Assembly (NCBI RefSeq): GCF_036321535.1
Contig: NC_087436.1
Coordinates: 1,240,001-1,304,000 of the forward strand
Direction: 5' to 3'
Source of the DNA: Camelus dromedarius
Taxonomy: Eukaryota
Length of the DNA: 64,000 nucleotides
The translations under genes and the position numbers were made by a program. A model generated the notes under the pieces. That model was not told where the DNA came from, ran no database searches, and worked only from the letters and a program-made list of their open reading frames with translations. The stretch's first letter is position 1, and each line of letters opens with the position of its first letter. Shown here one piece after another: positions 1 to 54,756 of the stretch.

Positions 1-478
1 AATGGAGTTTGCAACTGAAAAGAAACTTTGTGTTCCCAACAAGCTAGTTGAAGGACGGCTTTCACACACACTTATCTCTCAGAACTGAGCAAGTGGAGAG
101 AAGTTCGTTCATCTAGCACCAAGGGAACGGGTTGCAGGAGACACTTTTTCTCTGCTTTCTCAGTCTGTTTCCTAGTGCCGGTTTGAAGTTCCTGCAGTTT
201 TCACTGTCAAACCGAGTTGGAGCTAGAACCTCCCCATATATAAGTATGGAATTGATTTGGCAACTGAAAAGAAACTTTGTGTTCCCAACAAGGTAGTTGA
301 AGGACGGCTTTCACACACACTTATCTCTCAGAACTGAGCAAGTGGAGAGACGTTCTTTTATGTAGCACCAAGGGAACGGGTTGCAGGAGACACTTTTTCT
401 CTGCTTTCTCAGTCTGTTTCCTAGTGCCGGTTTGAAGTTCCTGCAGTTTTCACTGTAAAACCGAGTTGGAGCTTGTAC

Positions 479-505
479 CTCCCCATATATATGTATGGAA
501 TGGAG
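479..505. repeat. Short dyad at each monomer junction (CTCC-CCATA-tatatg-TATGG-aat-GGAG), containing the palindrome CATATATATG (example copy)
   Basis: CTCC 479-482 pairs with GGAG 502-505, and CCATA 483-487 pairs with TATGG 494-498. Confidence 0.75.
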
Positions 506-996
506 TTTGCAACTGAAAAGAAACTTTGTGTTCCCAACAAGCTAGGTGAAGGACGGCTTTCACACACACTTATCTCTCAGAACTGATCAAGTGGAGAGAC
601 GTTCGTTCATCTAGCACCAAGGGAACGGGTTGCAGGAGACACTTTTTCTCTACTTTCTCAGTCTGTTTCCTAGTGCCGGTTTGAAGTTCCTGCAGTTTTC
701 ACTGTAAAACCGAGTTGGAGCTTCTACCTCCCCATATATATGTATGGAATGGAGTTTGCAACTGAAAAGAAACTTTGTGTTCCCAACAAGCTAGGTGAAG
801 GACGGCTTTCACACACACTTATCTCTCAGAACAGAGCAAGTGGAGAGACGTTCGTTCATCTAGCACCAAGGGAACGGGTTGCAGGAGACACTTTTTCTCT
901 GCTTTCTCAGTCTGTTTCCTAGTGCCGGTTTGAAGTTCCTGCAGTTTTCACTGTGAAACCGAGTTGGAGATAGTACCTCCCCATATATATGTATGG

Positions 997-1991
997 AATG
1001 GAGTTTGCAACTGAAAAGAAACTTTGTGTTCCCAACAAGCTAGTTGAAGGACGGCTTTCACACACACATATCTCTCAGAACTGAGCAAGTGGAGAGACGT
1101 TCGTTCATCTAGCACCAAGGGAACGGGTTGCAGGTGACACTTTTTCTCTGCTTCCTCAGTCTGTTTCCTAGTGCCGGTTTGAAGTTCGTGCAGTTTTCAC
1201 TGTAAAACCGAGTTGGAGCTTGTACCTCCCCATATATATGTATGGAATGGAGTTTGCAACTGAAAAGAAACTTTGTGTTCCCAACAAGCTAGGTGAAGGA
1301 CGGCTTTCACACACACTTATCTCTCAGAACTGAGCAAGTGGAGAGACGTTCGTTCATCCAGCACCAAGGGAACGGGTTGCAGGAGACACGTTTTCTCTGC
1401 TTTCTCAGTCTGTTTCCTAGTGCCGGTTTGAAGTTCCTGCAGTTATCACTGTAAAACCGAGTTGGAGCTTGTACCTCCCCATATATATGTATGGAATCGA
1501 GTTTGCAACTGAAAAGAAACTTTGTGTTCCCAACAAGCTAGTTGAAGGACGGCTTTCACACACACATATCTCTCAGAACTGAGCAAGTGGAGAGACGTTC
1601 GTTCATCTAGCACCAAGGGAACGGGTTGCAGGTGACACTTTTTCTCTGCTTCCTCAGTCTGTTTCCTAGTGCCGGTTTGAAGTTCGTGCAGTTTTCACTG
1701 TAAAACCGAGTTGGAGCTTGTACCTCCCCATATATATGTATGGAATGGAGTTTGCAACTGAAAAGAAACTTTGTGTTCCCAACAAGCTAGGTGAAGGACG
1801 GCTTTCACACACACTTATCTCTCAGAACTGAGCAAGTGGAGAGACGTTCGTTCATCCAGCACCAAGGGAACGGGTTGCAGGAGACACGTTTTCTCTGCTT
1901 TCTCAGTCTGTTTCCTAGTGCCGGTTTGAAGTTCCTGCAGTTATCACCGAAAACCGAGTTGGAGCTTGTACCTACCCATATATATGTATGG
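997..1991 (+). repeat. Tandem dimer duplication (2 x 2 monomers)
   Basis: Monomer type A (AGTTG, CACATA, GGTGAC, CTTCCTC, TTCGTG) followed by type B (CATCCA, CACGTT, GTTATC) occurs twice, 498 bp apart. Confidence 0.9.
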
Positions 1992-2746
1992 AATGGAGTT
2001 TGCAACTGAAAAGAAACTTTGTGTTCCCAACAAGCTAGGTGAAGGACGGCTTTCACACACACATATCTCTCAGAACTGAGCAAGTGGAGAGACGTTCGTT
2101 CATCTAGCACCAAGGGAACGGGTTGCAGGAGACACTTTTTCTCTGCTTTCTCAGTGTGTTTCCTAGTGCCGGTTTGAAGTTCCTGCAGTTTTCACTGTAA
2201 AACCGAGTTGGAGCTAGTACCTCCCCATATATATGTATGGAATGGAGTTTGCAACTGAAAAGAAACTTTGTGTTCCCAACAAGCTAGTTGAAGGACGGCT
2301 TTCACACACACTTATCTCTCAGAACTGAGCAAGTGGAGAGAAGTTCGTTCATCTAGCACCAAGGGAACGGGTTGCAGGAGACACTTTTCTCTGCTTTCTC
2401 AGTCTGTTTCCTAGTGCCGGTTTGAAGTTCCTGCAGTTTTCACTGTCAAACCGAGTTGGAGCTAGTACCTCCCCATATATATGTATGGAATTGAGTTGGC
2501 AACTGAAAAGAAACTTTGTGTTCCCAACAAGCTAGTTGAAGGACGGCTTTCACACACACTTATCTCTCAGAACTGAGCAAGTGGAGAGACGTTCGTTCAT
2601 GTAGCACCAAGGGAACGGGTTGCAGGAGACAATTTTTCTCTGCTTCCTCAGTCTGTTTCCTAGTGCCGGTTTGAAATTCCTGCAGTTTTCACTGTCAAAC
2701 CGAGTTGGAGCTAGTACCTCCCCATATATATGTATGGAATGGAGTT

Positions 2747-2873
2747 TGCAACTGAAAAGAAACTTTGTGTTCCCAACAAGCTAGGTGAAGGACGGCTTTC
2801 ACACACACTTATCTCTCAGAACTGAGCAAGTGGAGAGACGTTCGTTCATCTAGCACCAAGGGAACGGGTTGCA
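2747..2873. repeat. Imperfect inverted repeat within every monomer (monomer positions 10-136; example copy)
   Basis: Nested complementary pairs: TGCAAC/GTTGCA, GTTCCC/GGGAAC, GCTAG/CTAGC, GTGAA/TTCAT, GGACG/CGTTC, CTTTC/GAGAG, CACTT/AAGTG and CTCAG/CTGAG around a central AA. Confidence 0.85.
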
Positions 2874-5800
2874 GGAGACACTTTTTCTCTGCTTTCTCAG
2901 TCTGTTTCCTAGTGCCGGTTTGAAGTTCCTGCAGTTTTCACTGTCAAACCGAGTTGGAGCTAGTACCACCCCTTATATATGTATGGAATGGAGTTTGCAA
3001 CTGAAAAGAAACTTTGTGTTCCCAACAAGCTAGGTGAAGGACGGCTTTCACACACACTTATCTCTCAGAACTGAGCAAGTGGAGAGACGTTCGTTCATCT
3101 AGCACCAAGGGAACGGGTTGCAGGAGACACTTTTTCTCTGCTTTCTCAATCTGTTTCCTAGTGCCGGTTTGAAGTTCCTGCAGTTTTCACTGTCAAACCG
3201 AGTTGGAGCTAGTTCCTCCCCATATATATGTATGGAATGGAGTTTGCAACTGAAAACAAACTTTGTGTTCCCAACAAGCTAGGTGAAGGACGGCTTTCAC
3301 ACACACTTATCTCTCAGAACTGAGCAAGTGGAGAGACGTTCGTTCATCTAGCACCAAGGGAACGGGTAGCAGGAGACACTTTTTCTCTGCTTTCTCAGTC
3401 TGTTTCCTAGTGCCGGTTTGAAGTTCCTGCAGTTTTCACTGTAAAACCGAGTTGGAGCTAGTACCTCCCCAAATATATGTATGGAATGGAGTTTGCAACT
3501 GAAAAGAAACTTTGTGTTCCCAACAAGCTAGGTGAAGGACGGCTTTCACACACATTTATCTCTCAGAACTGAGCAAGTGGAGAGACGTTCGTTCATGTAG
3601 CACCAAGGGAACGGGTTGCAGGAGACACATTTTCTCTGCTTTCTCAGTCTGTTTCCTAGTGCCTGTTAGAAGTTCCTGCAGTTTTCACTGTCAAACCGAG
3701 TTGGAGCTAGTACCTCCTCATATATATGTATGGAATGGAGTTTGCAACTGAAAAGAAACTTTGTGTTCCCAACAAGCTAGGTGAAGGACGGCTTTCACAC
3801 ACACTTATCTCTCAGAACTGAGCAAGTGGAGAGACGTTCGTTCATCTAGCACCAAGGGAACGGGTTGCAGGTGACACTTTTTCTCTGCTTTCTCAGTCTA
3901 TTTCCTAGTGCCGTTTTGAAGTTCCTGCAGTTTTCACTGTCAAACCGTGTTGGAGCTAGTACCTCCCCTTATATATGTATGAATGGACTTGGCAACTGAA
4001 AAGAAACTTTGTGTTCCCAACAAGCTAGGTGAAGGACGGCTTTCACACACACTTATCTCTCAGAACTGAGCAAGTGGAGAGACGTTCGTTCATCTAGCAC
4101 CAAGGGAACGGGTTGCAGGAGACACTTTTTCTCTGCTTTCTCAGTGTGTTTCCTAGTGCCGGTTTGAAGTTCCTGCAGTTTTCACTGTAAAACCGAGTTG
4201 GAGCTAGTACCTCCCCATATATATGTATGGAATGGAGTTTGCAACTGAAAAGAAACTTTGTGTTCCCAACAAGCTAGTTGAAGGACGGCTTTCACACACA
4301 CTTATCTCTCAGAACTGAGCAAGTGGAGAGAAGTTCGTTCATCTAGCACCAAGGGAACGGGTTGCAGGAGACACTTTTTCTCTGCTTTCTCAGTCTGTTT
4401 CCTAGTGCCGGTTTGAAGTTCCTGCAGTTTTCACTGTCAAACCGAGTTGGAGCTTGTACCTCCCCATATATATGTATGGAATGGAGTTTGCAACTGAAAA
4501 GAAACTTTGTGTTCCCAACAAGCTAGGTGAAGGACGGCTTTCACACACACTTATCTCTCAGAACTGATCAAGTGGAGAGACGTTCGTTCATCTAGCACCA
4601 AGGGAACGGGTTGCAGGAGACACTTTTTCTCTACTTTCTCAGTCTGTTTCCTAGTGCCGGTTTGAAGTTCCTGCAGTTTTCACTGTAAAACCGAGTTGGA
4701 GCTTCTACCTCCCCATATATATGTATGGAATGGAGTTTGCAACTGAAAAGAAACTTTGTGTTCCCAACAAGCTAGGTGAAGGACGGCTTTCACACACACT
4801 TATCTCTCAGAACAGAGCAAGTGGAGAGACGTTCGTTCATCTAGCACCAAGGGAACGGGTTGCAGGAGACACTTTTTCTCTGCTTTCTCAGTCTGTTTCC
4901 TAGTGCCGGTTTGAAGTTCCTGCAGTTTTCACTGTGAAACCGAGTTGGAGCTAGTACCTCCCCATATATATGTATGGAATGGAGTTTGCAACTGAAAAGA
5001 AACTTTGTGTTCCCAACAAGCTAGTTGAAGGACGGCTTTCACACACACATATCTCTCAGAACTGAGCAAGTGGAGAGACGTTCGTTCATCTAGCACCAAG
5101 GGAACGGGTTGCAGGTGACACTTTTTCTCTGCTTCCTCAGTCTGTTTCCTAGTGCCGGTTTGAAGTTCGTGCAGTTTTCACTGTAAAACCGAGTTGGAGC
5201 TTGTACCTCCCCATATATATGTATGGAATGGAGTTTGCAACTGAAAAGAAACTTTGTGTTCCCAACAAGCTAGGTGAAGGACGGCTTTCACACACACTTA
5301 TCTCTCAGAACTGAGCAAGTGGAGAGACGTTCGTTCATCCAGCACCAAGGGAACGGGTTGCAGGAGACACGTTTTCTCTGCTTTCTCAGTCTGTTTCCTA
5401 GTGCCGGTTTGAAGTTCCTGCAGTTATCACTGTAAAACCGAGTTGGAGCTTGTACCTCCCCATATATATGTATGGAATGGAGTTTGCAACTGAAAAGAAA
5501 CTTTGTGTTCCCAACAAGCTAGGTGAAGGGCGGCTTTCACACACATATATCTCTCAGAACTGAGCAAGTGGAGAGACGTTCGTTCATCTAGCACCAAGGG
5601 AACGGGTTGCAGGAGACACTTTTTCTCTGCTTTCTCAGTGTGTTTCCTAGTGCCGGTTTGAAGTTCCTGCAGTTTTCACTGTAAAACCGAGTTGGAGCTA
5701 GTACCTCCCCATATATATGTATGGAATGGAGTTTGCAACTGAAAAGAAACTTTGTGTTCCCAACAAGCTAGTTGAAGGACGGCTTTCACACACACTTATC

Positions 5801-8800
5801 TCTCAGAACTGAGCAAGTGGAGATTCGTTCCTTCATCTAGCACCAAGGGAACGGGTTGCAGGAGACACTTTTTCTCTGCTTTCTCAGTCTGTTTCCTAGT
5901 GCCGGTTTGAAGTTCCTGCAGTTTTCACTGTAAAACCGAGTTGGAGCTAGTACCTCCCCATATATATGTATGGAATTGAGTTGGCAACTGAAAAGAAACT
6001 TTGTGTTCCCAACAAGCTAGTTGAAGGACGGCTTTCACACACACTTATCTCTCAGAACTGAGCAAGTGGAGAGACGTTCGTTCATGTAGCACCAAGGGAA
6101 CGGGTTGCAGGAGACACTTTTTCTCTGCTTCCTCAGTCTGTTTCCTAGTGCCGGTTTGAAATTCCTGCAGTTTTCACTGTCAAACCGAGTTGGAGCTAGT
6201 ACCTCCCCATATATATGTATGGAAAGGAGTTTGCAACTGAAAAGAAACTTTGTGTTCCCAACAAGCTAGGTGAAGGACGGCTTTCACACACACTTATCTC
6301 TCAGAACTGAGCTAGTGGAGAGACGTTCGTTCATCTAGCACCAAGGGAACGGGTTGCAGGGGACACTTTTTCTCTGCTTTCTCAGTCTGTTTCCTAGTGC
6401 CTGTTTGAAGTTCCTGCAGTTTTCACTGTCAAACCGAGTTGGAGCTAGTACCTCCCCATATATATGTATGGAATGGAGTTTGCAACTGAAAAGAAACTTT
6501 GTGTTCCCAACAAGCTAGGTGAAGGACGGCTTTCACACACACTTATCTCTCAGAACTGAGCAAGTGGAGAGACGTTCGTTCATCTAGCACCAAGGGAACG
6601 GGTTGCAGGAGACACTTTTTCTCTGCTTTCTCAATCTGTTTCCTAGTGCCGGTTTGAAGTTCCTGCAGTTTTCACTGTCAAACCGAGTTGGAGGTAGTTC
6701 CTCCCCATATATATGTATGGAATGGAGTTTGCAACTGAAAACAAACTTTGTGTTCCCAACAAGCTAGGTGAAGGACGGCTTTCACACACACTTATCTCTC
6801 AGAACTGAGCAAGTGGAGAGACGTTCGTTCATCTAGCACCAAGGGAACTGGTAGCAGGAGACACTTTTTCTCTGCTTTCTCAGTCTGTTTCCTAGCGCCG
6901 GTTTGAAGTTCCTGCAGTTTTCACTGTAAAACCGAGTTGGAGCTAGTACCTCCCCATATATATGTATGGAATGGAGTTTGCAACTGAAAAGAAACTTTGT
7001 GTTCCCAACAAGCTAGGTGAAGGGCGGCTTTCACACACATTTATCTCTCAGAACTGAGCAAGTGGAGAGACGTTCGTTCATGTAGCACCAAGGGAACGGG
7101 TTGCAGGAGACACATTTTCTCTGCTTTCTCAGTCTGTTTCCTAGTGCCTGTTAGAAGTTCCTGCAGTTTTCACTGTCAAACCGAGTTGGAGCTAGTACCT
7201 CCCCATATATATGTATGGAATGGAGTTTGCAACTGAAAAGAAACTTTGTGTTCCCAACAAGCTAGGTGAAGGACGGCTTTCACACACACTTATCTCTCAG
7301 AACTGAGCAAGTGGAGAGACGTTCGTTCATCTAGCACCAAGGGAACGGGTTGCAGGTGACACTTTTTCTCTGCTTTCTCAGTCTATTTCCTAGTGCCGTT
7401 TTGAAGTTCCTGCAGTTTTCACTGTCAAACCGTGTTGGAGCTAGTACCTCCCCTTATATATGTATGAATGGACTTGGCAACTGAAAAGAAACTTTGTGTT
7501 CCCAACAAGCTAGGTGAAGGACGGCTTTCACACACACTTATCTCTCAGAACTGAGCAAGTGGAGAGACGTTCGTTCATCTAGCACCAAGGGAACGGGTTG
7601 CAGGAGACACTTTTTCTCTGCTTTCTCAGTGTGTTTCCTAGTGCCGGTTTGAAGTTCCTGCAGTTTTCACTGTAAAACCGAGTTGGAGCTAGTACCTCCC
7701 CATATATATGTATGGAATGGAGTTTGCAACTGAAAAGAAACTTTGTGTTCCCAACAAGCTAGTTGAAGGACGGCTTTCACACACACTTATCTCTCAGAAC
7801 TGAGCAAGTGGAGAGAAGTTCGTTCATCTAGCACCAAGGGAACGGGTTGCAGGAGACACTTTTTCTCTGCTTTCTCAGTCTGTTTCCTAGTGCCGGTTTG
7901 AAGTTCCTGCAGTTTTCACTGTAAAACCGAGTTGGAGCTAGTACCTCCCCATATATATGTATGGAATGGAGTTTGCAACTGAAAAGAAACTTTGTGTTCC
8001 CAACAAGCTAGGTGAAGGACGGCTTTCACACACACTTATCTCTCAGAACTGAGCAAGTGGAGAGACGTTCGTTCATCTAGCACCAAGGGAACGGGTTTAG
8101 GGGACACTTTTTCTCTGCTTTCTCAGTCTGTTTCCTAGTGCCTGTTTGAAGTTCCTGCAGTTTTCACTGTCAAACCGAGTTGGAGCTAGTACCTCCCCAT
8201 ATATATGTATGGAATGGAGTTTGCAACTGAAAAGAAACTTTGTGTTCCCAACAAGCTAGGTGAAGGACGGCTTTCACACACACTTATCTCTCAGAACTGA
8301 GCAAGTGGAGAGACGTTCGTTCATCTAGCACCAAGGGAACGGGTTGCAGGAGACACTTTTTCTCTGCTTTCTCAATCTGTTTCCTAGTGCCGGTTTGAAG
8401 TTCCTGCAGTTTTCACTGTCAAAACGAGTTGGAGCTAGTTCCTCCCCATATATATGTATGGAATGGAGTTTACAACTGAAAACAAACTTTGTGTTCCCAA
8501 CAAGCTAGGTGAAGGACGGCTTTCACACGCACTTATCTCTCAGAACTGAGCAAGTGGAGAGACGTTCGTTCATCTAGCACCAAGGGAACGGGTAGCAGGA
8601 GACACTTTTTCTCTGCTTTCTCAGTCTGTTTCCTAGTGCCGGTTTGAAGTTCCTGCAGTTTTCACTGTAAAACCGAGTTGGAGCTAGTACCTCCCCATAT
8701 ATATGTATGGAATGGAGTTTGCAACTGAAAAGAAACTTTGTGTTCCCAACAAGCTAGGTGAAGGACGGCTTTCACACACATTTATCTCTCAGAACTGAGC

Positions 8801-11800
8801 AAGTGGAGAGACGTTCGTTCATGTAGCACCAAGGGAACGGTTTGCAGGAGACACATTTTCTCTGCTTTCTCAGTCTGTTTCCTAGTGCCTGTTAGAAGTT
8901 CCTGAAGTTTTCACTGTCAAACCGAGTTGGAGCTAGTACCTCCCCATATATATGTATGGAATGGAGTTTGCAACTGAAAAGAAACTTTGTGTTCCCAACA
9001 AGCTAGGTGAAGGACGGCTTTCACACACACTTATCTCTCAGAACTGAGCAAGTGGAGAGACGTTCGTTCATCTAGCACCAAGGGAACGGGTTGCAGGTGA
9101 CACTTTTTCTCTGCTTTCTCAGTCTATTTCCTAGTGCCGTTTTGAAGTTCCTGCAGTTTTCACTGTCAAACCGTGTTGGAGCTAGTACCTCCCCTTATAT
9201 ATGTATGAATGGAGTTGGCAACTGAAAAGAAACTTTGTGTTCCCAACAAGCAAGGTGAAGGACGGCTTTCACACACACTTATCTCTCAGAACTGAGCAAG
9301 TGGAGAGACGTTCGTTCATCTAGCACCAAGGGAACGGGTTGAAGGAGACACTTTTTCTCTGCTTTCTCAGTGTGTTTCCTAGTGCCGGTTTGAAGTTCCT
9401 GCAGTTTTCACTGTAAAACCGAGTTGGAGCTATTACCTCCCCATATATATGTATGGAATGGAGTTTGCAACTGAAAAGAAACTTTGTGTTCCCAACAAGC
9501 TAGTTGAAGGACGGCTTTCACACACACTTATCTCTCAGAACTGAGCAAGTGGAGAGAAGTTCGTTCATCTAGCACCAAGGGAACGGGTTGCAGGAGACAC
9601 TTTTTCTCTGCTTTCTCAGTCTGTTTCCTAGTGCCAGTTTGAAGTTCCTGCAGTTTTCACTGTCAAACCGAGTTGGAGCTAGAACCTCCCCATATATATG
9701 TATGGAATTGATTTGGCAACTGAAAAGAAACTTTGTGTTCCCAACAAGGTAGTTGAAGGACGGCTTTCACACACACTTATCTCTCAGAACTGAGCAAGTG
9801 GAGAGACGTTCTTTTATGTAGCACCAAGGGAAGGGGTTGCAGGAGACACTTTTTCTCTGCTTCCTCAGTCTCTTTCCTAGTGCCGGTTTGAAGTTCCTGC
9901 AGTTTTCACTGTAAAATCGAGTTGGAGCTTGTACCTCCCCATATATATGTATGGAATGGAGTTTGCAACTGAAAAGGAACTTTGTGTTCCCAACAAGCTA
10001 GGTGAAGGACGGCTTTCACACACATTTATCTCTCAGAACTGAGCAAGTGGAGAGACGTTCGTTCATGTAGCACCAAGGGAACGGGTTGCAGGAGACACTT
10101 TTTCTCTGCTTTCTCAGTCTGTTTCCTAGTGCCTGTTAGAAGTTCCTGCAGTTTTCACTGTGAATCAGTGTTGGAGCTAGTACCTCCCCATATATATGTA
10201 TGGAATGGAGTTTGCAACTGAAAAGAAACTTTGTGTTCCCAACAAGCTAGGTGAAGGACGGCTTTCACACACACTTATCTCTCAGAACTGAGCAAGTGGA
10301 GAGACGTTCGTTCATCTAGCACCAAGGGAACGGGTTGCAGGTGACACTTTTTCTCTGCTTTCTCAGTCTATTTCCTAGTGCCGTTTTGAAGTTCCTGCAG
10401 TTTTCACTGTCAAACCGTTTTGGAGCTAGTACCTCCCCATATATATTTATGGAATGGAGTTTGCAACTGAAAAGAAACTTTGTGTTCCCAACAAGCTAGT
10501 TGAAGGACGGCTTTCACACACACATATCTCTCAGAACTGAGCAAGTGGAGAGACGTTCGTTCATCTAGCACCAAGGGAACGGGTTGCAGGTGACACGTTT
10601 TCTCTGCTTCCTCAGTCTGTTTCCTAGTGCCGGTTTGAAGTTCCTGCAGTTATCACTGTAAAACCGAGTTGGAGCTTGTACCTCCCCATATATATGTATG
10701 GAATGGAGTTTGCAACTGAAAAGAAACTTTGTGTTCCCAACAAGCTAGGTGAAGGACGGCTTTCACACACACATATCTCTCAGAACTGAGCAAGTGGAGA
10801 GCCGTTCGTTCATCTAGCACCAAGGGAACGGGTTGCAGGAGACACTTTTTCTCTGCTTTCTCAGTGTGTTTCCTAGTGCCGGTTTGAAGTTCCTGCAGTT
10901 TTCACTGTAAAACCGAGTTGGAGCTAGTACCTCCCCATATATATGTATGGAATGGAGTTTGCAACTGAAAAGAAACTTTGTGTTCCCAACAAGCTAGTTG
11001 AAGGACGGCTTTCACACACACTTATCTCTCAGAACTGAGCAAGTGGAGAGAAGTTCGTTCATCTAGCACCAAGGGAACGGGTTGCAGGAGACACTTTTTC
11101 TCTGCTTTCTCAGTCTGTTTCCTAGTGCCGGTTTGAAGTTCCTGCAGTTTTCACTGTCAAACCGAGTTGGAGCTAGAACCTCCCCATATATATGTATGGA
11201 ATTGATTTGGCAACTGAAAAGAAACTTTGTGTTCCCAACAAGGTAGTTGAAGGACGGCTTTCACACACACTTATCTCTCAGAACTGAGCAAGTGGAGAGA
11301 CGTTCTTTCATGTAGCACCAAGGGAAGGGGTTGCAGGAGACACTTTTTCTCTGCTTCCTCAGTCTCTTTCCTAGTGCCGGTTTGAAGTTCCTGCAGTTTT
11401 CACTGTAAAATCGAGTTGGAGCTTGTACCTCCCCATATATATGTATGGAATGGAGTTTGCAACTGAAAAGAAACTTTGTGTTCCCAACAAGCTAGGTGAA
11501 GGACGGCTTTCACACACACTTATCTCTCAGAACTGAGCAAGTGGAGAGACTTTCATTCATGTAGCACAAAGGGAACGGGTTGCAGGAGACACTATTTCTC
11601 TGCTTTCTCAGTCTGTTTCCTAGTGCCGGTTTGAAGTTCCTGCAGTTTTCACTCTCAAACAGAGTTGGAGCTAGTACCTCCCCATATATATGTATGGAAT
11701 TGAGTTGGCAACTGAAAAGAAACTTTGTGTTCCCAACAATCTAGGTGAAGGACGGCTTTCACACACACTTATCTCTCAGAACTGAGCAAGTGGAGAGACG

Positions 11801-14800
11801 TTCTTTCATGTAGCACCAAGGGAACGGGTTGCAGGAGACACTTTTTCTCTGCTTCCTCAGTCTGTTTCCTAGTGCCGGTTTGAAGTTCCTGCAGTTTTCA
11901 CTGTAAAACCGAGTTGGAGCTTCTACCTCCCCATATATATGTATGGAATGGAGTTTGCAACTGAAAAGAAACTTTGTGTTCCCAACAAGCTAGGTGAAGG
12001 ACGGCTTTCACACACACTTATCTCTCAGAACTGAGCAAGTGGAGAGACGTTCGTTCATCTAGCACCAAGGGAACGGGTTGCAGGAGACACTTTTTCTCTG
12101 TTTTCTCAGTCTGTTTCCTAGTGCCGGTTTGAAGTTCCTGCAGTTTTCACTGTGAATCCGAGTTGGAGCTTCTACCTACCCATATATATGTATGGAATGG
12201 AGTTTGCAACTGAAAAGAAACTTTGTGTTCCCAACAAGCTAGGTGAAGGACGGCTTTCACACACACTTATCTCTCAGAACTGAGCAAGTGGAGAGACGTT
12301 CGTTCATCTAGCACCAAGGGAACGGGTTGCAGGAGACACTTTTTCTCTGTTTTCTCAGTCTGTTTCCTAGTGCCTGTTTGAAGTTCCTGCAGTTTTCTCT
12401 GTGAATCCGAGTTGGAGCTTCTACCTCCCCATATATATGTATGGAATGGAGTTTGCAACTGAAAAGTAACTTTGTGTTCCCTACAAGCAAGGTGAAGGAC
12501 GGCTTTCACACACACTTATCTCTCAGAACTGAGCAAGTGGAGAGACGTTCGGTCATCTAGCACCAAGGGAATGGGTTGCAGGAGAAACTTTTTCTCTGCA
12601 TTCTCAGTCTGTTTCCTAGTGCCGGTTTGAAGTTCCTGCAGTTTTCACTGTCAAACCGAGTTGGAGCTAGTACCTCCCCATATATATGTATGGAATGGAG
12701 TTTGCAACTGAAAAGAAACTTTGTGTTCCCAACAAGCTAGGTGAAGGACGGCTTTCACACACATTTATCTCTCAGAACTGAGCAAGTGTAGAGACGTTCG
12801 TTCATCTAGCACCAAGGGAACGGGTTGCAGGAGACACTTTTTCTCTGCTTTCTCAGTCTGTTTCCTAGTGCCTGTTAGAAGTTCCTGCAGTTTTCACTGT
12901 CAAACCGAGTTGGAGCTAGTACCTCCCCATATATATGTATGGAATGGAGTTTGCAACTGAAAAGAAACTTTGTGTTCCCAACAAGCTAGGTGAAGGACGG
13001 CTTTCACACACACTTATCTCTCAGAACTGAGCAAGTGGAGAGACGTTCGTTCATCTAGCAGCAAGGGAACGGGTTGCAGGTGACACTTTTCTCTGCTTTC
13101 TCAGTCTATTTCCTAGTGCCGTTTTGAAGTTCCTGCAGTTTTCACTGTCAAACTGTGTTGGAGCTAGTACCTCCCCTTATATATGTATGGAATGGAGTTG
13201 GCAACTGAAAAGAAACTTTGTGTTCCCAACAAGCTAGGTGAAGGACGGCTTTCACACACACTTATCTCTCAGAACTGAGCAAGTGGAGAGACGTTCTTTC
13301 ATGTAGCACTAAGGGAACGGGTTGCAGGAGACACTTTTTCTCTGCTTTCTCAGTCTGTTTCCTAGTGCCGGTTTGAAGTTCCTGCAGTTTTCACTGTAAA
13401 ACCGTGTTGGAGCTTGTACCTCCCCATATATATGTATGGAATGGAGTTTGCAACTGAAAAGAAACTTTGTGTTCCCAACAAGCTAGGTGAAGGACGGCTT
13501 TCACACACACTTATCTCTCAGAAATGAGCAAGTGGAGAGACGTTCGTTCATCTAGCACCAAGGGAACGGGTTGCAGGAGACACTTTTTCTCCGCTTTCTC
13601 AGTCTGTTTCCTAGTGCCGGTTTGAAGTTCCTGCAGTTTTCACTGTAAAACCGAGTTGGAGCTTCTACCTCCCCATATATATGTATGGAATGGAGTTTGC
13701 AACTGAAAAGAAACTTTGTGTTCCCAACAAGCTAGGTGAAGGACGGCTTTCACACACACTTATCTCTCAGAACTGAGCAAGTGGAGAGACTTTCGTTCAT
13801 GTAGCACAAAGGGAACGGGTTGCAGGAGACACTTTTTCTCTGCTTTCTCAGTCTGTTTCCTAGTGCCGGTTTGAAGTTCCTGCAGTTTTCACTCTCAAAC
13901 CAAGTTGGAGCTAGTACCTCCCCATATATATGTATGGAATTGAGTTGGCAACTGAAAAGAAACTTTGTGTTCCCAACAATCTAGGTGAAGGACGGCTTTC
14001 ACACACACTTATCTCTCAGAACTGAGCAAGTGGAGAGACGTTCTTTCATGTAGCACCAAGGGAACGGGTTGCAGGAGACACTTTTTCTCTGCTTCCTCAA
14101 TATGTTTCCTAGTGCCTGTTTGAAGTTCCTGCAGTTTTCACTGTAAAACCGAGTTGGAGCTTCTACCTCCCCATATATATGTATGGAATGGAGTTTGCAA
14201 CTGAAAAGAAACTTTGTGTTCCCAACAAGCTAGGTGAAGAGCGGCTTTCACACACACTTATCTCTCAGAACTGAGCAAGTGGAGAGACGTTCGTTCATCT
14301 AGCACCAAGGGAACGGGTTGCAGGAGACACTTTTTCTCTGCTTTCTCAGTCTGTTTCCTAGTGCCGGTTTGAAGTTCCTGCAGTTTTCACTGTGAAACCG
14401 AGTTGGAGCTTCTACCTCCCCATATATATGTATGGAATGGAGTTTGCAACTGAAAAGAAACTTTGTGTTCCCAACAAGCTAGGTGAAGGACGGCTTTCAC
14501 ACACACTTATCTCTCAGAACTGAGCAAGTGGAGAGACGTTCGTTCATCTAGCACCAAGGGAACGGGTTGCAGGAGACACTTTTTCTCTGTTTTCTCAGTC
14601 TGTTTCCTAGTGCCGGTTTGAAGTTCCTGCAGTTTTCACTGTGAATCAGAGTTGGAGCTTCTACCTCCCCATATATATGTATGGAATGGAGTTTGCAACT
14701 GAAAGTAACTTTGTGTTCCCTACAAGCAAGGTGAAGGACGGCTTTCACACACACTTATCTCTCAGAACTGAGCAAGTGGAGAGACGTTCGTTCATCTAGC

Positions 14801-17749
14801 ACCAAGGGAACGGGTTGCAGGAGACACTTTTTCTCTGCTTTCTCAGTCTGTTTCCTAGTGCCGGTTTGAAGTTCCTGCAGTTTTCACTGTCAAACCGTGT
14901 TGGAGCTAGTACCTCCCCATATATAAGTATGGAATGGAGTTTGCAACTGAAAAGAAACTTTGTGTTCCCAACAAGCTAGGTGAAGGACGGCTTTCACACA
15001 CATTTATCTCTCAGAACTGAGCAAGTGGAGAGACGTTCGTTCATGTAGCACCAAGGGAACGGGTTGCAGGAGACACTTTTTCTCTGCTTTCTCAGTCTGT
15101 TTCCTAGTGCCTGTTAGAAGTTCCTACAGTTTTCACTGTCAAACCGAGTTGGAGCTAGTACCTCCCCATATATATGTATGGAATGGAGTTTGCAACTGAA
15201 AAGAAACTTTGTGTTCCCAACAAGCTAGGTGAAGGACGGCTTTCACACACACTTATCTCTCAGAACTGAGCAAGTGGAGAGACGTTCGTTCATCTAGCAC
15301 CAAGGGAACGGGTTGCAGGTGACACTTTTTCTCTTCTTTCTCAGTCTATTTCCTAGTGCCGTTTTGAAGTTCCTGCAGTTTTCACTGTCAAACCGTGTTG
15401 GAGCTAGTACCTCCCCTTATATATGTATGAATGGAGTTGGCAACTGAAAAGAAACTTTGTGTTCCCAACAAGCTAGGTGAAGGACGGCTTTCACACACAC
15501 TTATCTCTCAGAACTGAGCAAGTGGAGAGACGTTCTTTCATGTAGCACCAAGGGAACGGGTTGCAGGAGACACTTTTTCTCTGCTTTCTCAGTCTGTTTC
15601 CTAGTGCCGGTTTGAAGTTCCTGCAGTTTTCACTGTAAAACCGAGTTGGAGCTTGTACCTCCCCATATATATGTATGGAATGGAGTTTGCAACTGAAAAG
15701 AAACTTTGTGTTCCCAACAAGCTAGGTGAAGGACGGCTTTCACACACACTTATCTCTCAGAACAGAGCAAGTGGAGAGACGTTCGTTCATCTAGCACCAA
15801 GGGAACGGGTTGCAGGAGACACTTTTTCTCTGCTTTCTCAGTCTGTTTCCTAGTGCCGGTTTGAAGTTCCTGCAGTTTTCACTGTCAAACCGAGTTGGAG
15901 CTAGTACCTCCCCATATATATGTATGGAACTGAGTTGGCAACTGAAAAGAAACTTTGTGTTCCCAACAAGCTAGGTGAAGGACGGCTTTCACACACACTT
16001 ATCTCTCAGAACTGAGCAAGTGGAGAGACGTTCTTTCATGTAGCACCAAGGGAACGGGTTGCAGGAGACACTTTTTCTCTGCTTCCTCAGTCTGTTTCCT
16101 AGTGCCGGTTTGATGTTCCTGCAGTTTTCACTGTAAAACCGAGTTGGAGCTTGTACCTCCCCATATATATGTATGGAATGGAGTTTGCAACTGAAAAGAA
16201 ACTTTGTGTTCCCAACAAGCTAGGTGAAGGACGGCTTTCACACACACTTATCTCTCAGAACTGAGCAAGTGGAGAGACTTTCGTTCATGTAGCACAAAGG
16301 GAACGGGTTGCAGGAGACACTTTTTCTCTGCTTTCTCAGTCTGTTTCCTAGTGCCGGTTTGAAGTTCCTGCAGTTTTCACTGTGAAACCGAGTTGGAGCT
16401 TCTACCTCCCCATATATATGTATGGAATGGAGTTTGCAACTGAAAAGAAACTTTGTGTTCCCAACAAGCTAGGTGAAGGACGGCTTTCACACACACTTAT
16501 CTCTCAGAACTGAGCATGTGGAGAGACGTTCGTTCATCTAGCACCAAGGGAACGGGTTGCAGGAGACACTTTTTCTCTGTTTTCTCAGTCTGTTTCCTAG
16601 TGCCGGTTTGAAGTTCCTGCAGTTTTCACTGTTAAACCGTGTTGGAGCTTCTACCTCCCCATATATATGTATGGAATGGAGTTTGCAACTGAAAAGTAAC
16701 TTTGTGTTCCCTACAAGCAAGGTGAAGGACGGCTTTCACACACACTTATCTCTCAGAACTGAGCTAGTGGAGAGACGTTCGTTCATCTAGCACCAAGGGA
16801 ACGGGTTGCAGGAGACAGTTTTTCTCTGCTTTCTCAGTCTGTTTCCTAGTGCCGGTTTGAAGTTCCTGCAGTTTTCACTGTCAAACCGAGTTGGAGCTAG
16901 TACCTCCCCATATATATGTATGGAATGGAGTTTGCAACTGAAAAGAAACTTTGTGTTCCCAACAAGCTAGGTGAAGGACGGCTTTCACACACATTTATCT
17001 CTCAGAACTGAGCAAGTGGAGAGACGTTCGTTCATGTAGCACCAAGGGAACGGGTTGCAGGAGACACTTTTTCTCTGCTTTCTCAGTCTGTTTCCTAGTG
17101 CCTGTTAGAAGTTCCTGCAGTTTTCACTGTCAAACCGAGTTGGAGCTAGTACCTCCCCATATATATGTATGGAATGGAGTTTGCAACTGAAAAGAAACTT
17201 TGTGTTCCCAACAAGCTAGGTGAAGGACGGCTTTCACACACACTTATCTCTCAGAACTGAGCAAGTGGAGAGACGTTCGTTCATCTAGCACCAAGGGAAC
17301 GGGTTGCAGGAGACACTTTTTCTCTGCTTTCTCAGTGTGTTTCCTAGTGCCGGTTTGAAGTTCCTGCAGTTTTCACTGTAAAACCGAGTTGGAGCTTGTA
17401 CCTCCCCATATATATGTATGGAATGGAGTTTGCAACTGAAAAGAAACTTTGTGTTCCCAACAAGCTAGTTGAAGGACGGCTTTCACACACACTTATCTCT
17501 CAGAACTGAGCAAGTGGAGAGAAGTTCGTTCATCTAGCACCAAGGGAACGGGTTGCAGGAGACACTTTTTCTCTGCTTTCTCAGTCTGTTTCCTAGTGCC
17601 GGTTTGAAGTTCCTGCAGTTTTCACTGTCAAACCGAGTTGGAGCTAGTACCTCCCCATATATATGTTTGGAATTGAGTTTGCAACTGAAAAGAAAGTTTG
17701 TGTTCCCAACAAGCTAGTTGAAGGACGGCTTTCACACACACTTATCTCT

Positions 17750-20700
17750 CAGAACTGAGCAAGTGGAGAGACGTTCGTTCATCTAGCACCAAGGGAACGG
17801 GTTGCAGGAGACACTTTTTCTCTGCTTCCTCAGTCTGTTTCCTAGTGCCGGTTTGAAGTTCCTGCAGTTTTCACTGTAAAACCGAGTTGGAGCTAGTACC
17901 TCCCCATATATATGTATGGAATGGAGTTTGCAACTGAAAAGAAACTTTGTGTTCCCAACAAGCTAGGTGAAGGACGGCTTTCACACACACTTATCTCTCA
18001 GAACTGAGCAAGTGGAGAGACGTTCGTTCATCTAGCACCAAGGGAACGGGTTGCAGGAGACACTTATTCTCTGCTTTCTGTCTGTTTCCTAGTGCCTGTT
18101 TGAAGTTCCTGCAGTTTTCACTGTGAAACCGAGTTGGAGCTAGTACCTCCCCATATATATGTATGGAATGGAGTTTGCAACTGAAAAGAAAGTTTGTGTT
18201 CCCAACAAGCTAGGTGAAGGTCGGCTTTCACACACACTTATCTCTCAGAACTGAGCAAGTGGAGAGACGTTCGTTCATCTAGCAGCAAGGGAACGGTTTG
18301 CAGGAGACACTTTTTCTCTGCTTTCTCAGTCTGTTTCCAAGTGCCGGTTTAAAGTTCCTGCAGTTTTCACTGTCAAACCGAGTTGGAGCTAGTACCTCCC
18401 CATATATATGTATGGAATTGAGTTGGCAACTGAAAAGAAACTTTGTGTTCCCAACAAGCTAGGTGAAGGACGGCTTTCACACACATTTATCTCTCAGAAC
18501 TGAGCAAGTGGAGAGACGTTCTTTCATGTAGCACCAAGGGAACGGGTTGCAGGAGGCACTTTTTCTCTGCTTCCTCAGTCTGTTTCCTAGGGCCGGTTTG
18601 AAGTTCCTGCAGTTTTCACTGTAAAACCGAGTTGGAGCTTGTACCTCCCCATATATATGTATGGAATGGAGTTTGCAACTGAAAAGAAACTTTGTGTTCC
18701 CAACAAGCTAGGTGAAGGACGGCTTTCACACACACTTATCTCTCAGAACTGAGCAAGTGGAGAGACGTTCGTTCATGTAGCACAAAGGGAACGGGTTGCA
18801 GGATACACTTTTTCTCTGCTTTCTCAGTCTGTTTCCTAGTGCCGGTTTTAAGTTCCTGCAGTTTTCACTGTAAAACCGAGTTGGAGCTTCTACCTCCCCA
18901 TATATATGTATGGAATGGAGTTTGCAACTGAAAAGAAACTTTGTGTTCCCAACAAGCAAGGTGAAGTACGGCTTTCACACACACTTATCTCTCAGAACTG
19001 AGCAAGTGGAGAGACGTTCGTTCATCTAGCACCAAGGGAACGGGTAGCAGGAGACACTTTATCTCTGCTTTCTCAGTCTGTTTCCTAGTGCCGGTTTAAA
19101 GTTCCTGCAGTTTTCACTGTAAAACAGAGTTGGAGCTAGTACCTCCCCATATATATGTATGGAATGGAGTTTGCAACTGAAAAGAAACTTTGTGTTCCCA
19201 ACAAGCTGGTGAAGGACGGCTTTCACACACACTTATCTCTCAGAACTGAGCAAGTGGAGAGACGTTCGTTCATCTAGCACCAAGGGAACGGGTTGCAGGA
19301 GACACTTTTTCTCTGCTTTCTCAGTCTGTTTCCTAGTGCCGGTTTGAAGTTCCTGCAGTTTTCACTGTGAAACCGAGTTGGAGCTTCTACCTTCCCATAT
19401 ATATGTATGGAATGGAGTTTGCAACTGAAAAGAAACTTTGTGTTCCCAACAAGCTAGGTGAAGGACGGCTTTCACACACACTTATCTCTCAGAACAGAGC
19501 AATTGGAGAGACGTTCGTTCATCTAGCACCAAGGGAACGGGTTGCAGGAGACACTTTTTCTCTGTTTTCTCAGTCTGTTTCCTAGTGCCGGTTTGAAGTT
19601 CCTGCAGTTTTCACTGTGAATCCGAGTTGGAGCTTCTACCTCCCCATATATATGTATGGAATGGAGTTTGCAACTGAAAAGTAACTTTGTGTTCCCTACA
19701 AGCAAGGTGAAGGACGGCATTCACACACACTTATCTCTCAGAACTGAGCAAGTGGAGAGACGTTCGTTCATCTAGCACCAAGGGAAAGGGTTGCAGGAAA
19801 CACTTTTTCTCTGCTTTCTCAGTCTGTTTCCTAGTGCCGGTTTGAAGTTCCTGCAGTTTTCACTGTCAAACCGAGTTGGAGCTAGTACCTCCCCATATAT
19901 ATGTATGGAATGGAGTTTGCAACTGAAAAGAAACTTTGTGTTCCCAACAAGCTAGATGAAGGACGGCTTTCACACACATTTATCTCTCAGAACTGAGCAA
20001 GTGGAGAGACGTTCGTTCATGTAGCACCAAGGGAACGGGTTGCAGGAGACACTTTTTCTCTGCTTTCTCAGTCTGTTTCCTAGTGCCTGTTAGAAGTTCC
20101 TGCAGTTTTCACTGTCAAACCGTGTTGGAGCTAGTACCTCCCCATATATATGTATGGAATGGAGTTTGCAACTGAAAAGAAACTTTGTGTTCCCAACAAG
20201 CTAGGTGAAGGACGGCTTTCACACACACTTATCTCTCAGAACTGAGCAAGTGGAGAGACGTTCGTTCATCTAGCACCAAGGGAACGGGTTGCAGGAGACA
20301 CTTTATCTCTGCTTTCTCAGTCTGTTTCCTAGTGCCGGTTTAAAGTTCCTGCAGTTTTCACTGTCAAACCGAGTTGGAGCTAGTACCTCCCCATATATAT
20401 GTATGGAATGGAGTTTGCAACTGAAAAGAAACTTTGTGTTCCCAACAAGCTAGGTGAAGGACGGCTTTCACACACACTTATCTCTCAGAACTGAGCAAGT
20501 GGAGAGACGTTCGTTCATCTAGCACCAAGGGAACGGGTTGCAGGAGACACTTTTTCTCTGCTTTCTCAGTGTGTTTCCTAGTGCCGGTTTGAAGTTCCTG
20601 CAGTTTTCACTGTAAAACCGAGTTGGAGCTAGTACCTCCCCATATATATGTATGGAATGGAGTTTGCAACTGAAAAGAAACTTTGTGTTCCCAACAAGCT

Positions 20701-35400: not shown

Positions 35401-37081
35401 CACACACACTTATCTCTCAGAACTGAGCAAGTGGAGAGACGTTCGTTCATCCAGCACCAAGGGAACGGGTTGCAGGAGACACGTTTTCTCTGCTTTCTCA
35501 GTCTGTTTCCTAGTGCCGGTTTGAAGTTCCTGCAGTTATCACTGTAAAACCGAGTTGGAGCTTGTACCTCCCCATATATATGTATGGAATGGAGTTGGCA
35601 ACTGAAAAGAAACTTTGTGTTCCCAACAAGCTAGGTGAAGGACGGCTTTCACACCCACTTATCTCTAAGAACTGAGCAAGTGGAGAGACGTTCGTTCATC
35701 TAGCACCAAGGGAACGGGTTGCAGGAGACACTTTTTCTCTGTTTTCTCAGTCTGTTTCCTAGTGCCGGTTTGAAGTTCCTGCAGTTTTCACTGTGAAACC
35801 GAGTTGGAGCTTCTACCTCCCCATATATATGTATGGAATGGAGTTTGCAACTGAAAAGAAACTTTCAGTTCCCAACAAGCAAGGTGAAGGACGGTTTTCA
35901 CACACACTTATCTCTCAGAACTGAGCAAGTGGAGAGACGTTCGTTCATCTAGCACCAAGGGAACGGGTTGCAGGAGACACTTTATCTCTGCTTTCTCAGT
36001 CTGTTTCCTAGTGCCGGTTTGAAGTTCCTGCAGTTTTCACTGTGAAACCGAGTTGGAGCTAGTACCTCCCCATATATATGTATGGAATGGAGTTTGCAAC
36101 TGAAAAGAAACCTTGTGTTCCCAACAAGCTAGGTGAAGGACGGCTTTCACACACACTTATCTCCCAGAACTGAGCAAGTGGAGAGACGTTCGTTCATCTA
36201 GCACCAAGGGAACGGGTTGCAGGTGACACTTTTTCTCTGCTCTCTCAGTCTGTTTCCTAGTGCCGGTTTGAAGTTCCTGCAATTTTCACTGTAAAACCGA
36301 GTTGGAGCTAGTACCTCCCCATATATATGTATGGAATGGAGTTTGCAACTGAAAAGAAACTTTGTGTTCCCAACAAGCTAGGTGAAGGACGGCTTTCACA
36401 CACACTTATCTCTCAGAACTGAGCAAGTGGAGAGACGTTCGTTCATCTAGTACCAAGGGAAGGGGTTGCAGGAGACACTTTTTCTCTGCCTTCTCAGTCT
36501 GTTTCCTAGTGCCGGTTTGAAGTACCTGCAGTTTTCACTGTCGAACCGAGTTGGTGCTAGTACCTCCCCATATATATGTATGGAATGGAGTTTGCAACTG
36601 AAAAGAAACTTTGTGTTCCCCACAAGCTTTTTGAAGGACGGCTTTCACACACAATTATCTCTCAGAACTGAGCAAGTGGAGAGACGTTCTTTCATGTAGC
36701 ACCAAGGGAACGGGTTGCAGGAGACACTTTTTCTCTGCTTTCTCAGTCTGTTTCCTAGTGCCGGTTTGAAGTTCCTGCAGTTTTCACTGTAAAACCGTGT
36801 TGGAGCTTGTACCTCCCCATATATATGTATGGAATGGAGTTTGCAACTGAAAAGAAACTTTGTGTTCCCAACAAGCTAGGTGAAGGACGGCTTTCACACA
36901 CACTTATCTCTCAGAACTGAGCAAGTGGAGAGACGTTCGTTCATCTAGCACCAAGGGAACGGGTTGCAGGAGACACTTTTTCTCTGCTTTCTCAGTCTGT
37001 TTCCTAGTGCCGGTTTGAAGTTCCTGCAGTTTTCACTGTAAAACCGAGTTGGAGCTTCTACCTCCCCATATATATGTATGG
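28618..37081 (+). repeat. Tandem 17-mer duplication (4232-bp unit), near-identical copies
   Basis: ORFs 30601/34833 and 32234/36466 are offset by 4232, and the marker order is the same in 28618-32849 and 32850-37081. Confidence 0.9.
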
Positions 37082-54470: not shown

Positions 54471-54756
54471 CGAGTTGGAGCTAGTACCTCCCCATATATA
54501 TGTATGGAATGGAGTTTGCAACTGAAAAGAAACTCTGTGTTCCCAACAAGCTAGGTGAAGGACGGCTTTCACACACACTTATCTCTCAGAACTGAGCAAG
54601 TGGAGAGACGTTCGTTCATCTAGCACCAAGGGAACGGGTTGCAGGAGACACTTTTTCTCTGCTTTCTCTGTCTGTTTCCTAGTGCCGGTTTGAGGTTCCT
54701 GCAGTTTTCACTGTAAAACCGAGTTGGAGCTAGTACCTCCCCATATATATGTATGG

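What the first reader, a model, noticed from the sequence alone, without database searches (positions are those of the whole stretch)
2747..2873. Half of the 249-bp monomer is a hidden long foldback (cruciform or hairpin-RNA candidate, possibly MITE-derived)
Seen: the left arm is GTTCCC aacaa GCTAGGTGAA-GGACGGCTTTC acaca CACTT atct CTCAG (monomer 32-82). The reverse complement of the right arm is GTTCCC ttggt GCTAGATGAACGAACGTCTCTC CACTT g CTCAG (monomer 85-128). They are closed outside by TGCAAC/GTTGCA (10-15/131-136). That is eight nested, correctly ordered complementary blocks, repeated ~257 times. Known: dyad symmetry and non-B DNA have been proposed as features of centromeric satellites lacking CENP-B boxes, and some satellites derive from foldback or MITE elements. 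Inference: the monomer may have arisen from a palindromic element or be maintained for its structure.
Basis: partly seen in the sequence, partly recalled or inferred. Interest (0 to 1): 0.75.

Follow-up and report, generated by a model that had tools for sequence, protein, structure and literature searches.

The report
Camelid satellite with incidental one-strand foldback
This is the already catalogued main tandem repeat of the camel family; each unit can fold into a loose hairpin on one strand, but nothing here suggests the hairpin is maintained, forms a cruciform or came from a transposon.

Summary
The window is a pure head-to-tail array of 257 copies of a 249-bp unit. By eye the unit is 92% identical to the 248-nt llama 'candidate centromere repeat' of Melters et al. 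2013, so the family is already catalogued. On the + strand it folds better than most shuffles after correcting for choice of window (0-6 of 150-500, spans 100-200 nt). The - strand does not (40 of 400), and none of ten Watson-Crick alignment scores is significant (53-343 of 500). Paired sites vary as often as unpaired ones (52 of 82 vs 27 of 45), with no Watson-Crick compensation; in llama 5 of 8 differences break pairs. Cruciform extrusion would cost about +48 to +80 kcal/mol net. No MITE ends, target duplication or CENP-B box. Verdict: a passive feature copied by concerted evolution. A side result is more useful: the array's Ti/Tv is 0.29-0.45, like active human alpha satellite (0.55); a 2026 preprint leaves open whether other satellites share this.

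The parts
1..64000 (+). Uninterrupted head-to-tail array of the camelid 248-249-bp major satellite, 257 copies, all in one orientation
   Evidence: TRF period 249, 257.1 copies, 96%; 0 reverse-strand anchors; 185 distinct monomers among 256 rows; mean pairwise identity 96.2%
2738..2986 (+). The monomer that holds the finding (3 differences from the column majority)
32601..32849 (+). A real monomer identical to the column majority, used for all statistics
2747..2752 (+). Outer helix, left arm (monomer 10-15); weak, competes with another pairing
   Evidence: exact complement of 2868-2873; pair probability 0.51 (DNA) and 0.26 (RNA) in a 3-monomer context
2769..2800 (+). Core left arm (monomer 32-63), with a 5x5 internal loop at 38-42
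   Evidence: pair probabilities 0.84-0.88 for the sampled pairs 34-50 on + DNA, about 0.2 on - DNA; inverted pair I1, 24 nt, 71%
2806..2832 (+). Inner region (monomer 69-95): CACTT/AAGTG and CTCAG/CTGAG dyads
   Evidence: the pair at 72-92 is absent in llama and in the commoner form in the laid runs
2833..2865 (+). Core right arm (monomer 96-128)
2868..2873 (+). Outer helix, right arm (monomer 131-136)
2886..2901 (+). Competing inverted partner (monomer 149-164) of monomer 84-99; 16 nt, 81% complementary in the modal monomer
2935..2949 (+). Competing inverted partner (monomer 198-212) of monomer 7-21; 15 nt, 73% complementary in the modal monomer
32834..32849 (.). A+T-rich short dyad at the monomer end (234-249), containing a perfect 10-bp palindrome (235-244); the cheapest cruciform candidate, still unfavourable

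Best explanation
The window lies in an array of the camelid major satellite (llama candidate centromere repeat of Melters et al. 2013). The array is kept homogeneous by duplication and loss of whole units and probably gene conversion. Shown: block duplications of 4-9 monomers at lags such as 17, 28, 33 and 45. Inferred: the mechanism, by analogy with Arabidopsis and human arrays. The foldback is a passive property of the unit, either the worn remains of an old inverted duplication in the founding sequence or a chance arrangement. It is copied with every unit and erodes at the same rate as the rest. It can form only when the + strand is single-stranded (lagging strand, displaced strand of an R-loop, + transcript), not as a cruciform in duplex DNA. 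A centromeric position is likely but not shown.
For: Family match: 229 of 249 positions, 19 substitutions and 1 deletion against the llama repeat, which is 248 nt, 45% GC and 2.9% of the genome (compared by eye). No selection on pairs: variable sites 52 of 82 in stems, 27 of 45 in loops, 82 of 122 outside (Fisher p 0.71). Of 75 distinct stem variants, 57 break the pair, 14 give G-T, 2 give Watson-Crick and 2 are gaps. Mean fold of every fourth monomer (64 of 256) is matched by 39 of 200 permutations. Spanning-tree events per site: stem 1.94, loop 1.44, outside 2.30 (p 0.37 and 0.91). At opposed mismatches 6 of 20 variants create a pair, against 1 in 3 expected. In llama 8 differences fall in 10-136: 5 break pairs, 2 make pairs, 1 is neutral; 5 of 82 stem vs 3 of 45 loop positions (p 1.0). 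Strand asymmetry -23.8 vs -16.9 kcal/mol. Cruciform net cost +48 to +80 kcal/mol. Block duplications. No Rfam match near a gathering score.
Against: The + strand fold is better than most shuffles even after correction (0 of 500 DNA, 2 of 500 RNA). Short-dyad density is raised (0.357 vs 0.196, 4 of 500). The foldback half differs slightly less from llama than the rest (8 of 127 vs 12 of 122, p 0.36). Three monomer instances change both sides of a pair, each to a T-G wobble. Llama gains two pairs at 38-39 where the window has a loop, which fits a once-better inverted repeat. The selection tests have limited power: one array, 96% identity, one outside species.
Confidence: 0.7

Rival explanations
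1. The + strand hairpin (core 32-63/96-128) is functional as RNA or single-stranded DNA, for example a structured centromeric transcript or a source of small RNAs, and is under weak selection.
For: Only one strand folds well, as a transcript would need. RNA fold -48.2 vs -37.4 kcal/mol, 2 of 500. Sampled core pair probabilities about 0.8 in a 3-monomer context. The repeat is present in RNA libraries.
Against: Raw RNA reads (X21): 284 of 12,895,792 reads laid, in both directions, and no place where many molecules begin or end; a single-cell cDNA library would probably miss small or non-polyadenylated RNA. DNA carry-over is not excluded. No Rfam family. No stem conservation. Five pairs broken in llama. 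G-T wobbles make any fold strand-asymmetric.
Confidence: 0.12
2. Short dyads in the unit (not the long foldback) form small cruciforms or melted DNA that help recruit CENP-A in place of CENP-B, as in the Kasinathan-Henikoff model.
For: No CENP-B box: 0 matches with up to 1 mismatch; 7 with 2 mismatches, against 81 expected. Ten dyads with arms of 5 or more and spacer under 20; density 0.357 vs 0.196, 4 of 500. The model itself is in PMC5889037 (passages).
Against: Arms of 6 or more are not enriched (378 of 500). Even the cheapest dyad (234-249) has a net cost of +5 to +9 kcal/mol in my rough model. CENP-A occupancy is unknown. PMC11639080 (passages) finds the lowest dyad density in active human arrays. 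A divergent form in run X5 has lost the CTCAG/CTGAG dyad (loose end behind 2807, 112 records, agreement 0.77).
Confidence: 0.1
3. The unit descends from a MITE or foldback DNA transposon whose terminal repeats are the two arms.
For: Satellites derived from MITEs and foldback elements are known (review PMC12628747, passages). An unchecked note reports an old piggyBac family in this genome.
Against: The outer repeat is only 6 bp and lies inside the unit. The flanks carry no adjacent TA, TTAA or 8-bp duplication (sequence). The arms are not a significant inverted repeat. In X5, 2,001 of 230,790 laid contigs fit only partly, and the 6 X5 loose ends listed are satellite-like (466 rows across the four runs not shown). 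The share running on into unlike sequence is 0 in X15 and X17.
Confidence: 0.06
4. The whole 97-127-bp foldback extrudes as a cruciform in chromosomal DNA.
For: Nested complementary blocks exist.
Against: Melting 127 bp costs about 177 kcal/mol and the two hairpins return about 41. Net cost is +80 (sigma -0.06) or +48 (sigma -0.08) kcal/mol; for 32-128 it is +58 or +34 (recalled nearest-neighbour and supercoiling constants, assumed junction penalty). The longest perfect stem at its centre is 5 bp with a 2-nt spacer. The - strand fold is not better than shuffles (40 of 400).
Confidence: 0.02

Closest known systems
Lama glama candidate centromere repeat, 248 nt (Melters et al. 2013, PMC4053949, supplementary file 1 and Table S1)
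   Same: Same family: collinear over the whole unit, 229 of 249 positions, 45% GC. Llama letters at monomer 92, 120, 142, 149 and 155 are also common in the laid runs: 33-70% of contig depth in X5, 95-98% in X17.
   Different: 19 substitutions and 1 deletion. The window holds a subfamily with its own letters at those places. Llama-type changes at 38, 39 and 114 are not among the rows listed for the laid runs (39 rows not shown), so the source is probably not llama; an Old World camel is my inference. Melters named it centromeric only because it is the most abundant tandem repeat; 'llama' and 'secondary structure' do not occur in the main text.
Dyad-rich satellites without CENP-B boxes (Old World monkey alpha satellite, horse, chicken; Kasinathan and Henikoff 2018, PMC5889037)
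   Same: No CENP-B box; modest excess of short dyads by their definition.
   Different: Their feature is many dyads under 10 bp, not one long imperfect foldback. CENP-A binding and non-B DNA are untested here.
Active human alpha-satellite arrays (PMC13684623, preprint)
   Same: Homogeneous array with whole-unit block duplications and loss of transition bias: 0.29-0.45 here vs 0.55 there.
   Different: No sequence relationship was tested. My ratio compares monomers within one array; theirs compares haplotypes.
MITE- or foldback-derived satellites (Xenopus Xstir and miDNA4, Drosophila Tetris; review PMC12628747)
   Same: Tandem unit with internal inverted similarity.
   Different: No terminal repeats at the unit ends, no target duplication, no dispersed parent element seen.
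Alpaca satellites VpaSat01-13 and SAC-SAT (PMC13751797)
   Same: Same lineage.
   Different: VpaSat units are 2.3-8.6 kb and the study set centromeric repeats aside; SAC-SAT is described as NOR-associated and South American only. No match to my six short motifs beyond one chance 8-mer, but the supplement cells are cut at 400 characters.

Membership tests
Camelid 248-249-bp major satellite (Melters 2013 llama repeat) | Full-length sequence similarity to the published monomer | tested here: met
   229 of 249 positions by eye against the sequence shown
Camelid 248-249-bp major satellite (Melters 2013 llama repeat) | Long tandem array, very high genomic abundance | tested here: met
   64 kb pure array; 230,790 of 5,229,630 contigs of run X5 lie on one monomer (X5 may be the source of this DNA, and contig counts are no copy number)
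Functional centromeric satellite | CENP-A occupancy or FISH at primary constrictions | not testable with these tools
   no such data found in ten paper searches
Functional centromeric satellite | CENP-B box (optional feature) | tested here: not met
   0 matches at 0-1 mismatch; 7 at 2 mismatches vs 81 expected
Dyad-enriched satellite (Kasinathan-Henikoff) | Excess of perfect dyads with arm over 4 and spacer under 20, against permuted sequence | tested here: met
   4 of 500 for arms of 5 or more; 14 of 500 for 4 or more; 378 of 500 for 6 or more
Dyad-enriched satellite (Kasinathan-Henikoff) | Non-B DNA detected experimentally | not testable with these tools
   needs permanganate or S1 sequencing
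Cruciform-forming inverted repeat | Near-perfect arms, both strands folding, extrusion affordable at physiological supercoiling | tested here: not met
MITE | Terminal inverted repeats (usually 10 bp or more; recalled) at both ends of the element | tested here: not met
   outer repeat 6 bp; arms not significant under ten scorings
MITE | Target-site duplication | tested here: not met
   no adjacent TA, TTAA or 8-bp direct repeat around 10-136 or 32-128 (sequence, by eye)
MITE | Dispersed copies and a related autonomous element | tested here: inconclusive
   listed loose ends are satellite-like, but most rows were not shown; no host genome held; no Dfam/Repbase
Conserved structured RNA | Compensatory covariation | tested here: not met
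   0 Watson-Crick double changes in 256 rows; 3 instances to T-G wobble; none in llama
Conserved structured RNA | Discrete strand-specific transcript | tested here: inconclusive
   284 reads, both directions, no pile-up of ends, single-cell cDNA only

The most novel reading that the evidence does not exclude
Two readings are not excluded. (a) The + strand hairpin is a working element of a CENP-B-independent camelid centromere, formed on centromeric transcripts or the displaced R-loop strand and kept loosely for more than 11 million years (lower bound for the camel-llama split in PMC13751797); about 0.12. (b) The loss of transition bias seen here (Ti/Tv 0.29-0.45, and 3 transitions to 15 transversions against llama) is a general signature of actively homogenising mammalian centromeric arrays, usable as a sequence-only marker of the active array; about 0.5 that it holds between haplotypes and separates active from old arrays. 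The probability given is for (a).
Probability: 0.12. Interest if true: 0.65.

Novelty: already known. Interest (0 to 1): 0.3.

Why it matters
The satellite family has been in print since 2013 as a line in a supplement. I found no description of its foldback or any functional study in ten searches of the held library, which lacks most subscription papers, including the 1987 and 1994 camelid restriction-satellite papers that I saw only as citations. The foldback matters little unless in-cell evidence appears. It is a fair example of how a fixed-window z-score and 257 copies overstate a single unselected feature. The substitution spectrum matters more: PMC13684623 reports Ti/Tv 0.55 in active human alpha satellite, a similar value for HSat1A, and says it is unknown whether other centromeric satellites share it. 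This camelid array shows the same or a lower ratio, which makes the question directly testable in a non-primate mammal.

Tried and rejected
No whole genome is held, so dispersed copies could not be searched directly. Rfam: 10 matches up to E 10, all far below gathering scores. No tRNA in 32000-34000. One stop-free frame of 100 codons or more in the window. No plasmid match. No exact 26-mer match in metagenome contigs. No look-alike in earlier scan notes by sequence. Prospero PaB6 (249 bp) rejected: it is built of TTAGGG repeats. Dog and coyote also have 249-nt entries in Melters Table S1, at 51-53% GC; not pursued, since llama matched. My first motif search of the Melters supplement found nothing because llama differs at those motifs; the species-name search found it. 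No hit for six 16-17-mers in paper full texts. Cichlid inverted 'centroids' are 15-kb elements, not comparable. Palindrome self-correction by template switching was tested and not seen (6 of 20). No internal direct sub-repeat: best lag 83 matches vs 80.5 +/- 3.1 in shuffles. One of the 256 alignment rows is a dimer whose second unit has a deletion in my anchor, so that unit is not properly counted. The llama monomer and the commoner run variant were not folded, so their energies are unknown. RNA-run contigs X15 and X17 show presence only.

Full report
What the window is. All 64,000 bases are one tandem array: period 249, 257.1 copies, 96% matches, flat at about 45% GC, all units in one orientation. 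Splitting gave 256 rows (232 of 249 nt, 20 of 248, 3 of 247, and one dimer caused by a deletion in my anchor). Of these, 185 are distinct, with mean pairwise identity 96.2%. There is no regular higher-order repeat, but runs of 4-9 monomers recur at lags such as 17, 28, 33 and 45. That fits recent duplication of whole-unit blocks, as measured in Arabidopsis centromeres (10.1101/2025.06.02.657473, passages).

Identity. Supplementary file 1 of Melters et al. 2013 (PMC4053949) gives the Lama glama candidate centromere repeat; Table S1 lists 248 nt, 45% GC, 2.9% of the genome, no higher-order structure found. By eye it is collinear with the window's modal monomer: 19 substitutions and one deletion, 229 of 249 positions. 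'Candidate' there means only the most abundant tandem repeat (passages). Contigs and reads of four public runs laid on one monomer show the llama letters at monomer 92, 120, 142, 149 and 155 in 70, 55, 36, 33 and 41% of contig depth in X5 and 95-98% in X17. The window therefore holds a subfamily. Earlier unchecked notes call this genome camelid. An Old World camel is my inference, because llama-type changes at 38, 39 and 114 are not among the listed variants (39 rows not shown). Of a 2026 alpaca satellite paper (PMC13751797) I read parts 1-4 of 8 and searched the supplement, whose cells are cut at 400 characters. It covers kilobase units, sets centromeric repeats aside, and says no comprehensive camelid satellite study existed. 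The 1987 and 1994 restriction-satellite papers I saw only as citations.

The foldback is there. Six nested blocks are exact complements at the stated positions. The DNA minimum-energy structure has 41 main-stem pairs, 37 Watson-Crick and 4 G-T. The fixed window gives z -3.83 (DNA) and -4.85 (RNA). A fair null takes the best structure anywhere in a shuffled circular monomer, on either strand. At span 127 the real unit still wins: 0 of 500 (DNA) and 2 of 500 (RNA). A coarser window scan that missed the best window gave 6 of 199. At spans 100, 160 and 200 the counts are 1, 6 and 1 of 150; without G-T pairs, 3 of 150; at span 60, 144 of 150.

Two results cut against a true inverted repeat. The - strand folds at -16.9 against -23.8 kcal/mol and is not better than shuffles (40 of 400); sampled core pairs have probability about 0.85 on + and 0.2 on -. 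And none of ten alignment scorings of inverted similarity is significant (53-343 of 500). Two other inverted pairs in the unit (84-99/149-164 and 7-21/198-212) are about as good as the core. The span was chosen after seeing the feature, and the scan reads very many windows, so the real excess is modest.

It is not maintained. Variable sites: 52 of 82 in stems, 27 of 45 in loops, 82 of 122 outside (p 0.71). Of 75 distinct stem variants, 57 break the pair, 14 give G-T, 2 give Watson-Crick and 2 are gaps. Both sides change in 3 monomer instances, each to a T-G wobble, none to Watson-Crick. The mean fold of 64 of 256 monomers is matched by 39 of 200 permutations of variant positions. Counting events on a spanning tree of the 185 distinct monomers gives 1.94 per stem site, 1.44 per loop site and 2.30 outside (p 0.37 and 0.91). 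Variants at opposed mismatches create a pair in 6 of 20 cases, as chance predicts, so there is no template-switch correction.

Against llama (by eye), 8 differences fall in 10-136. Five break pairs (47, 92, 114 and two in 125-128), two create pairs (38, 39), one is neutral (120); none is compensatory. The foldback half is slightly more conserved than the rest (8 of 127 vs 12 of 122, p 0.36). The 72-92 pair exists only in the window's subfamily. The two llama gains hint at a once-better inverted repeat from which each lineage lost different pairs, but two events are weak evidence. I put an old inverted duplication and chance at about even odds.

It cannot be a cruciform. With recalled nearest-neighbour constants, an assumed 4 kcal/mol junction and the recalled 1100RT/N supercoiling energy for a 3-kb domain, extruding 10-136 costs +80 (sigma -0.06) or +48 (sigma -0.08) kcal/mol net. 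For 32-128 it is +58 or +34. The short dyads are cheaper (+5 to +19) but still unfavourable; the best is the A+T-rich 234-249. By the definition in PMC5889037 (passages), short dyads are modestly enriched: density 0.357 vs 0.196, 4 of 500; arms of 6 or more are not. There is no CENP-B box. The unit thus fits that paper's class on sequence, through its short dyads rather than the long foldback. PMC11639080 (passages) reports the lowest dyad density in active human arrays, so the class itself is disputed.

RNA and transposon readings. No Rfam family. In the one raw-read RNA run laid (X21, single-cell cDNA, about 1 in 100 of the run), 284 of 12,895,792 reads matched, in both directions, with no place where many molecules begin or end. 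Some loose ends resemble a template-switch adapter (recalled). This shows at most low, diffuse transcription and cannot exclude small RNAs. MITE features are absent: a 6-bp outer repeat inside the unit, no target duplication, and satellite-like loose ends. The host genome and Dfam/Repbase could not be searched. Routes from MITEs to satellites are real in other taxa (PMC12628747, passages).

Side result. Substitutions in the array are transversion-rich: 74 transitions to 164 transversions among distinct variants, 47 to 125 for variants in two or more copies, 0.29 over all pairs and 0.37 on the spanning tree. Allowing for saturation, a ratio of 2.1 predicts 145 to 93 (p about 2e-20); no bias (1 in 3) fits (p 0.49). 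Short-read contigs agree: 1 transition place of 26 in X5, 0 of 14 in X15 and 1 of 12 in X17, though X21 raw reads have 16 of 77. The llama comparison gives 3 to 15 with one ambiguous. CpG bases are only modestly more transition-prone (9 of 12 vs 33 of 101). PMC13684623 (section 14 and passages) reports 0.55 for active human alpha satellite, rising in older arrays, and leaves other satellites open. Arabidopsis centromeres also show fewer GC-to-AT transitions. My measure compares paralogous monomers, not haplotypes, and has no matched unique-DNA control from this genome. By analogy it weakly supports an actively homogenising array.

Verdict. This is a known satellite family with a modest, one-strand, unselected foldback. 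Interest 0.3, carried partly by the substitution spectrum. Supplements I could not see (the alpaca paper's slides and cut cells; bioRxiv files) may bear on whether the family's location or structure has been described.

Noticed in passing
window 1-64000: Transversion-rich substitution spectrum (Ti/Tv 0.29-0.45), dominated by G>T/C>A and T>A/A>T, like active human alpha satellite (0.55, PMC13684623); echoed in short-read contigs and in the llama comparison.
   Followed up: partly
window 1-64000, monomer rows 73-130 and 171-185: Recent block duplications of 4-9 monomers at lags 9, 17, 22, 26-28, 33, 45 and 54; no regular higher-order repeat.
   Followed up: partly
window 2808 onward (monomer 71-100), loose end in run X5: A divergent form of the satellite (112 records, agreement 0.77) lines up by eye without gaps, with about 10 changes in 30 bases, and lacks the CTCAG/CTGAG dyad: an older subfamily useful for a covariation test.
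   Followed up: no
monomer 2, 92, 120, 142, 149, 155: The window's subfamily has its own letters here, while llama and much of the laid runs share another state. The share differs between runs (X5 33-70%, X17 95-98% at the five tabulated places), suggesting species- or chromosome-specific subfamilies.
   Followed up: partly
window 32834-32849 (monomer 234-249): A+T-rich dyad with a perfect 10-bp palindrome; it folds on both strands and is the best cruciform candidate in the unit.
   Followed up: partly
monomer 178-181 and 192-197: One MspI and one PstI site per unit; by eye llama keeps the first and lacks the second. This may correspond to a camelid restriction satellite of the 1987/1994 papers (names recalled, not checked).
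   Followed up: no
monomer 56, 102, 106, 128, 179, 213: Six CpGs (observed/expected 0.47), with only a modest excess of transitions.
   Followed up: partly
window 2860, 2894, 2972 in run X21: Adapter-like loose ends (4-7 reads each, agreement about 0.6) on both strands; possible cDNA 5' ends of satellite transcripts (adapter identity recalled).
   Followed up: no
window 14685-14720: A monomer with a 1-bp deletion and several changes at its start, missed by my anchor.
   Followed up: yes
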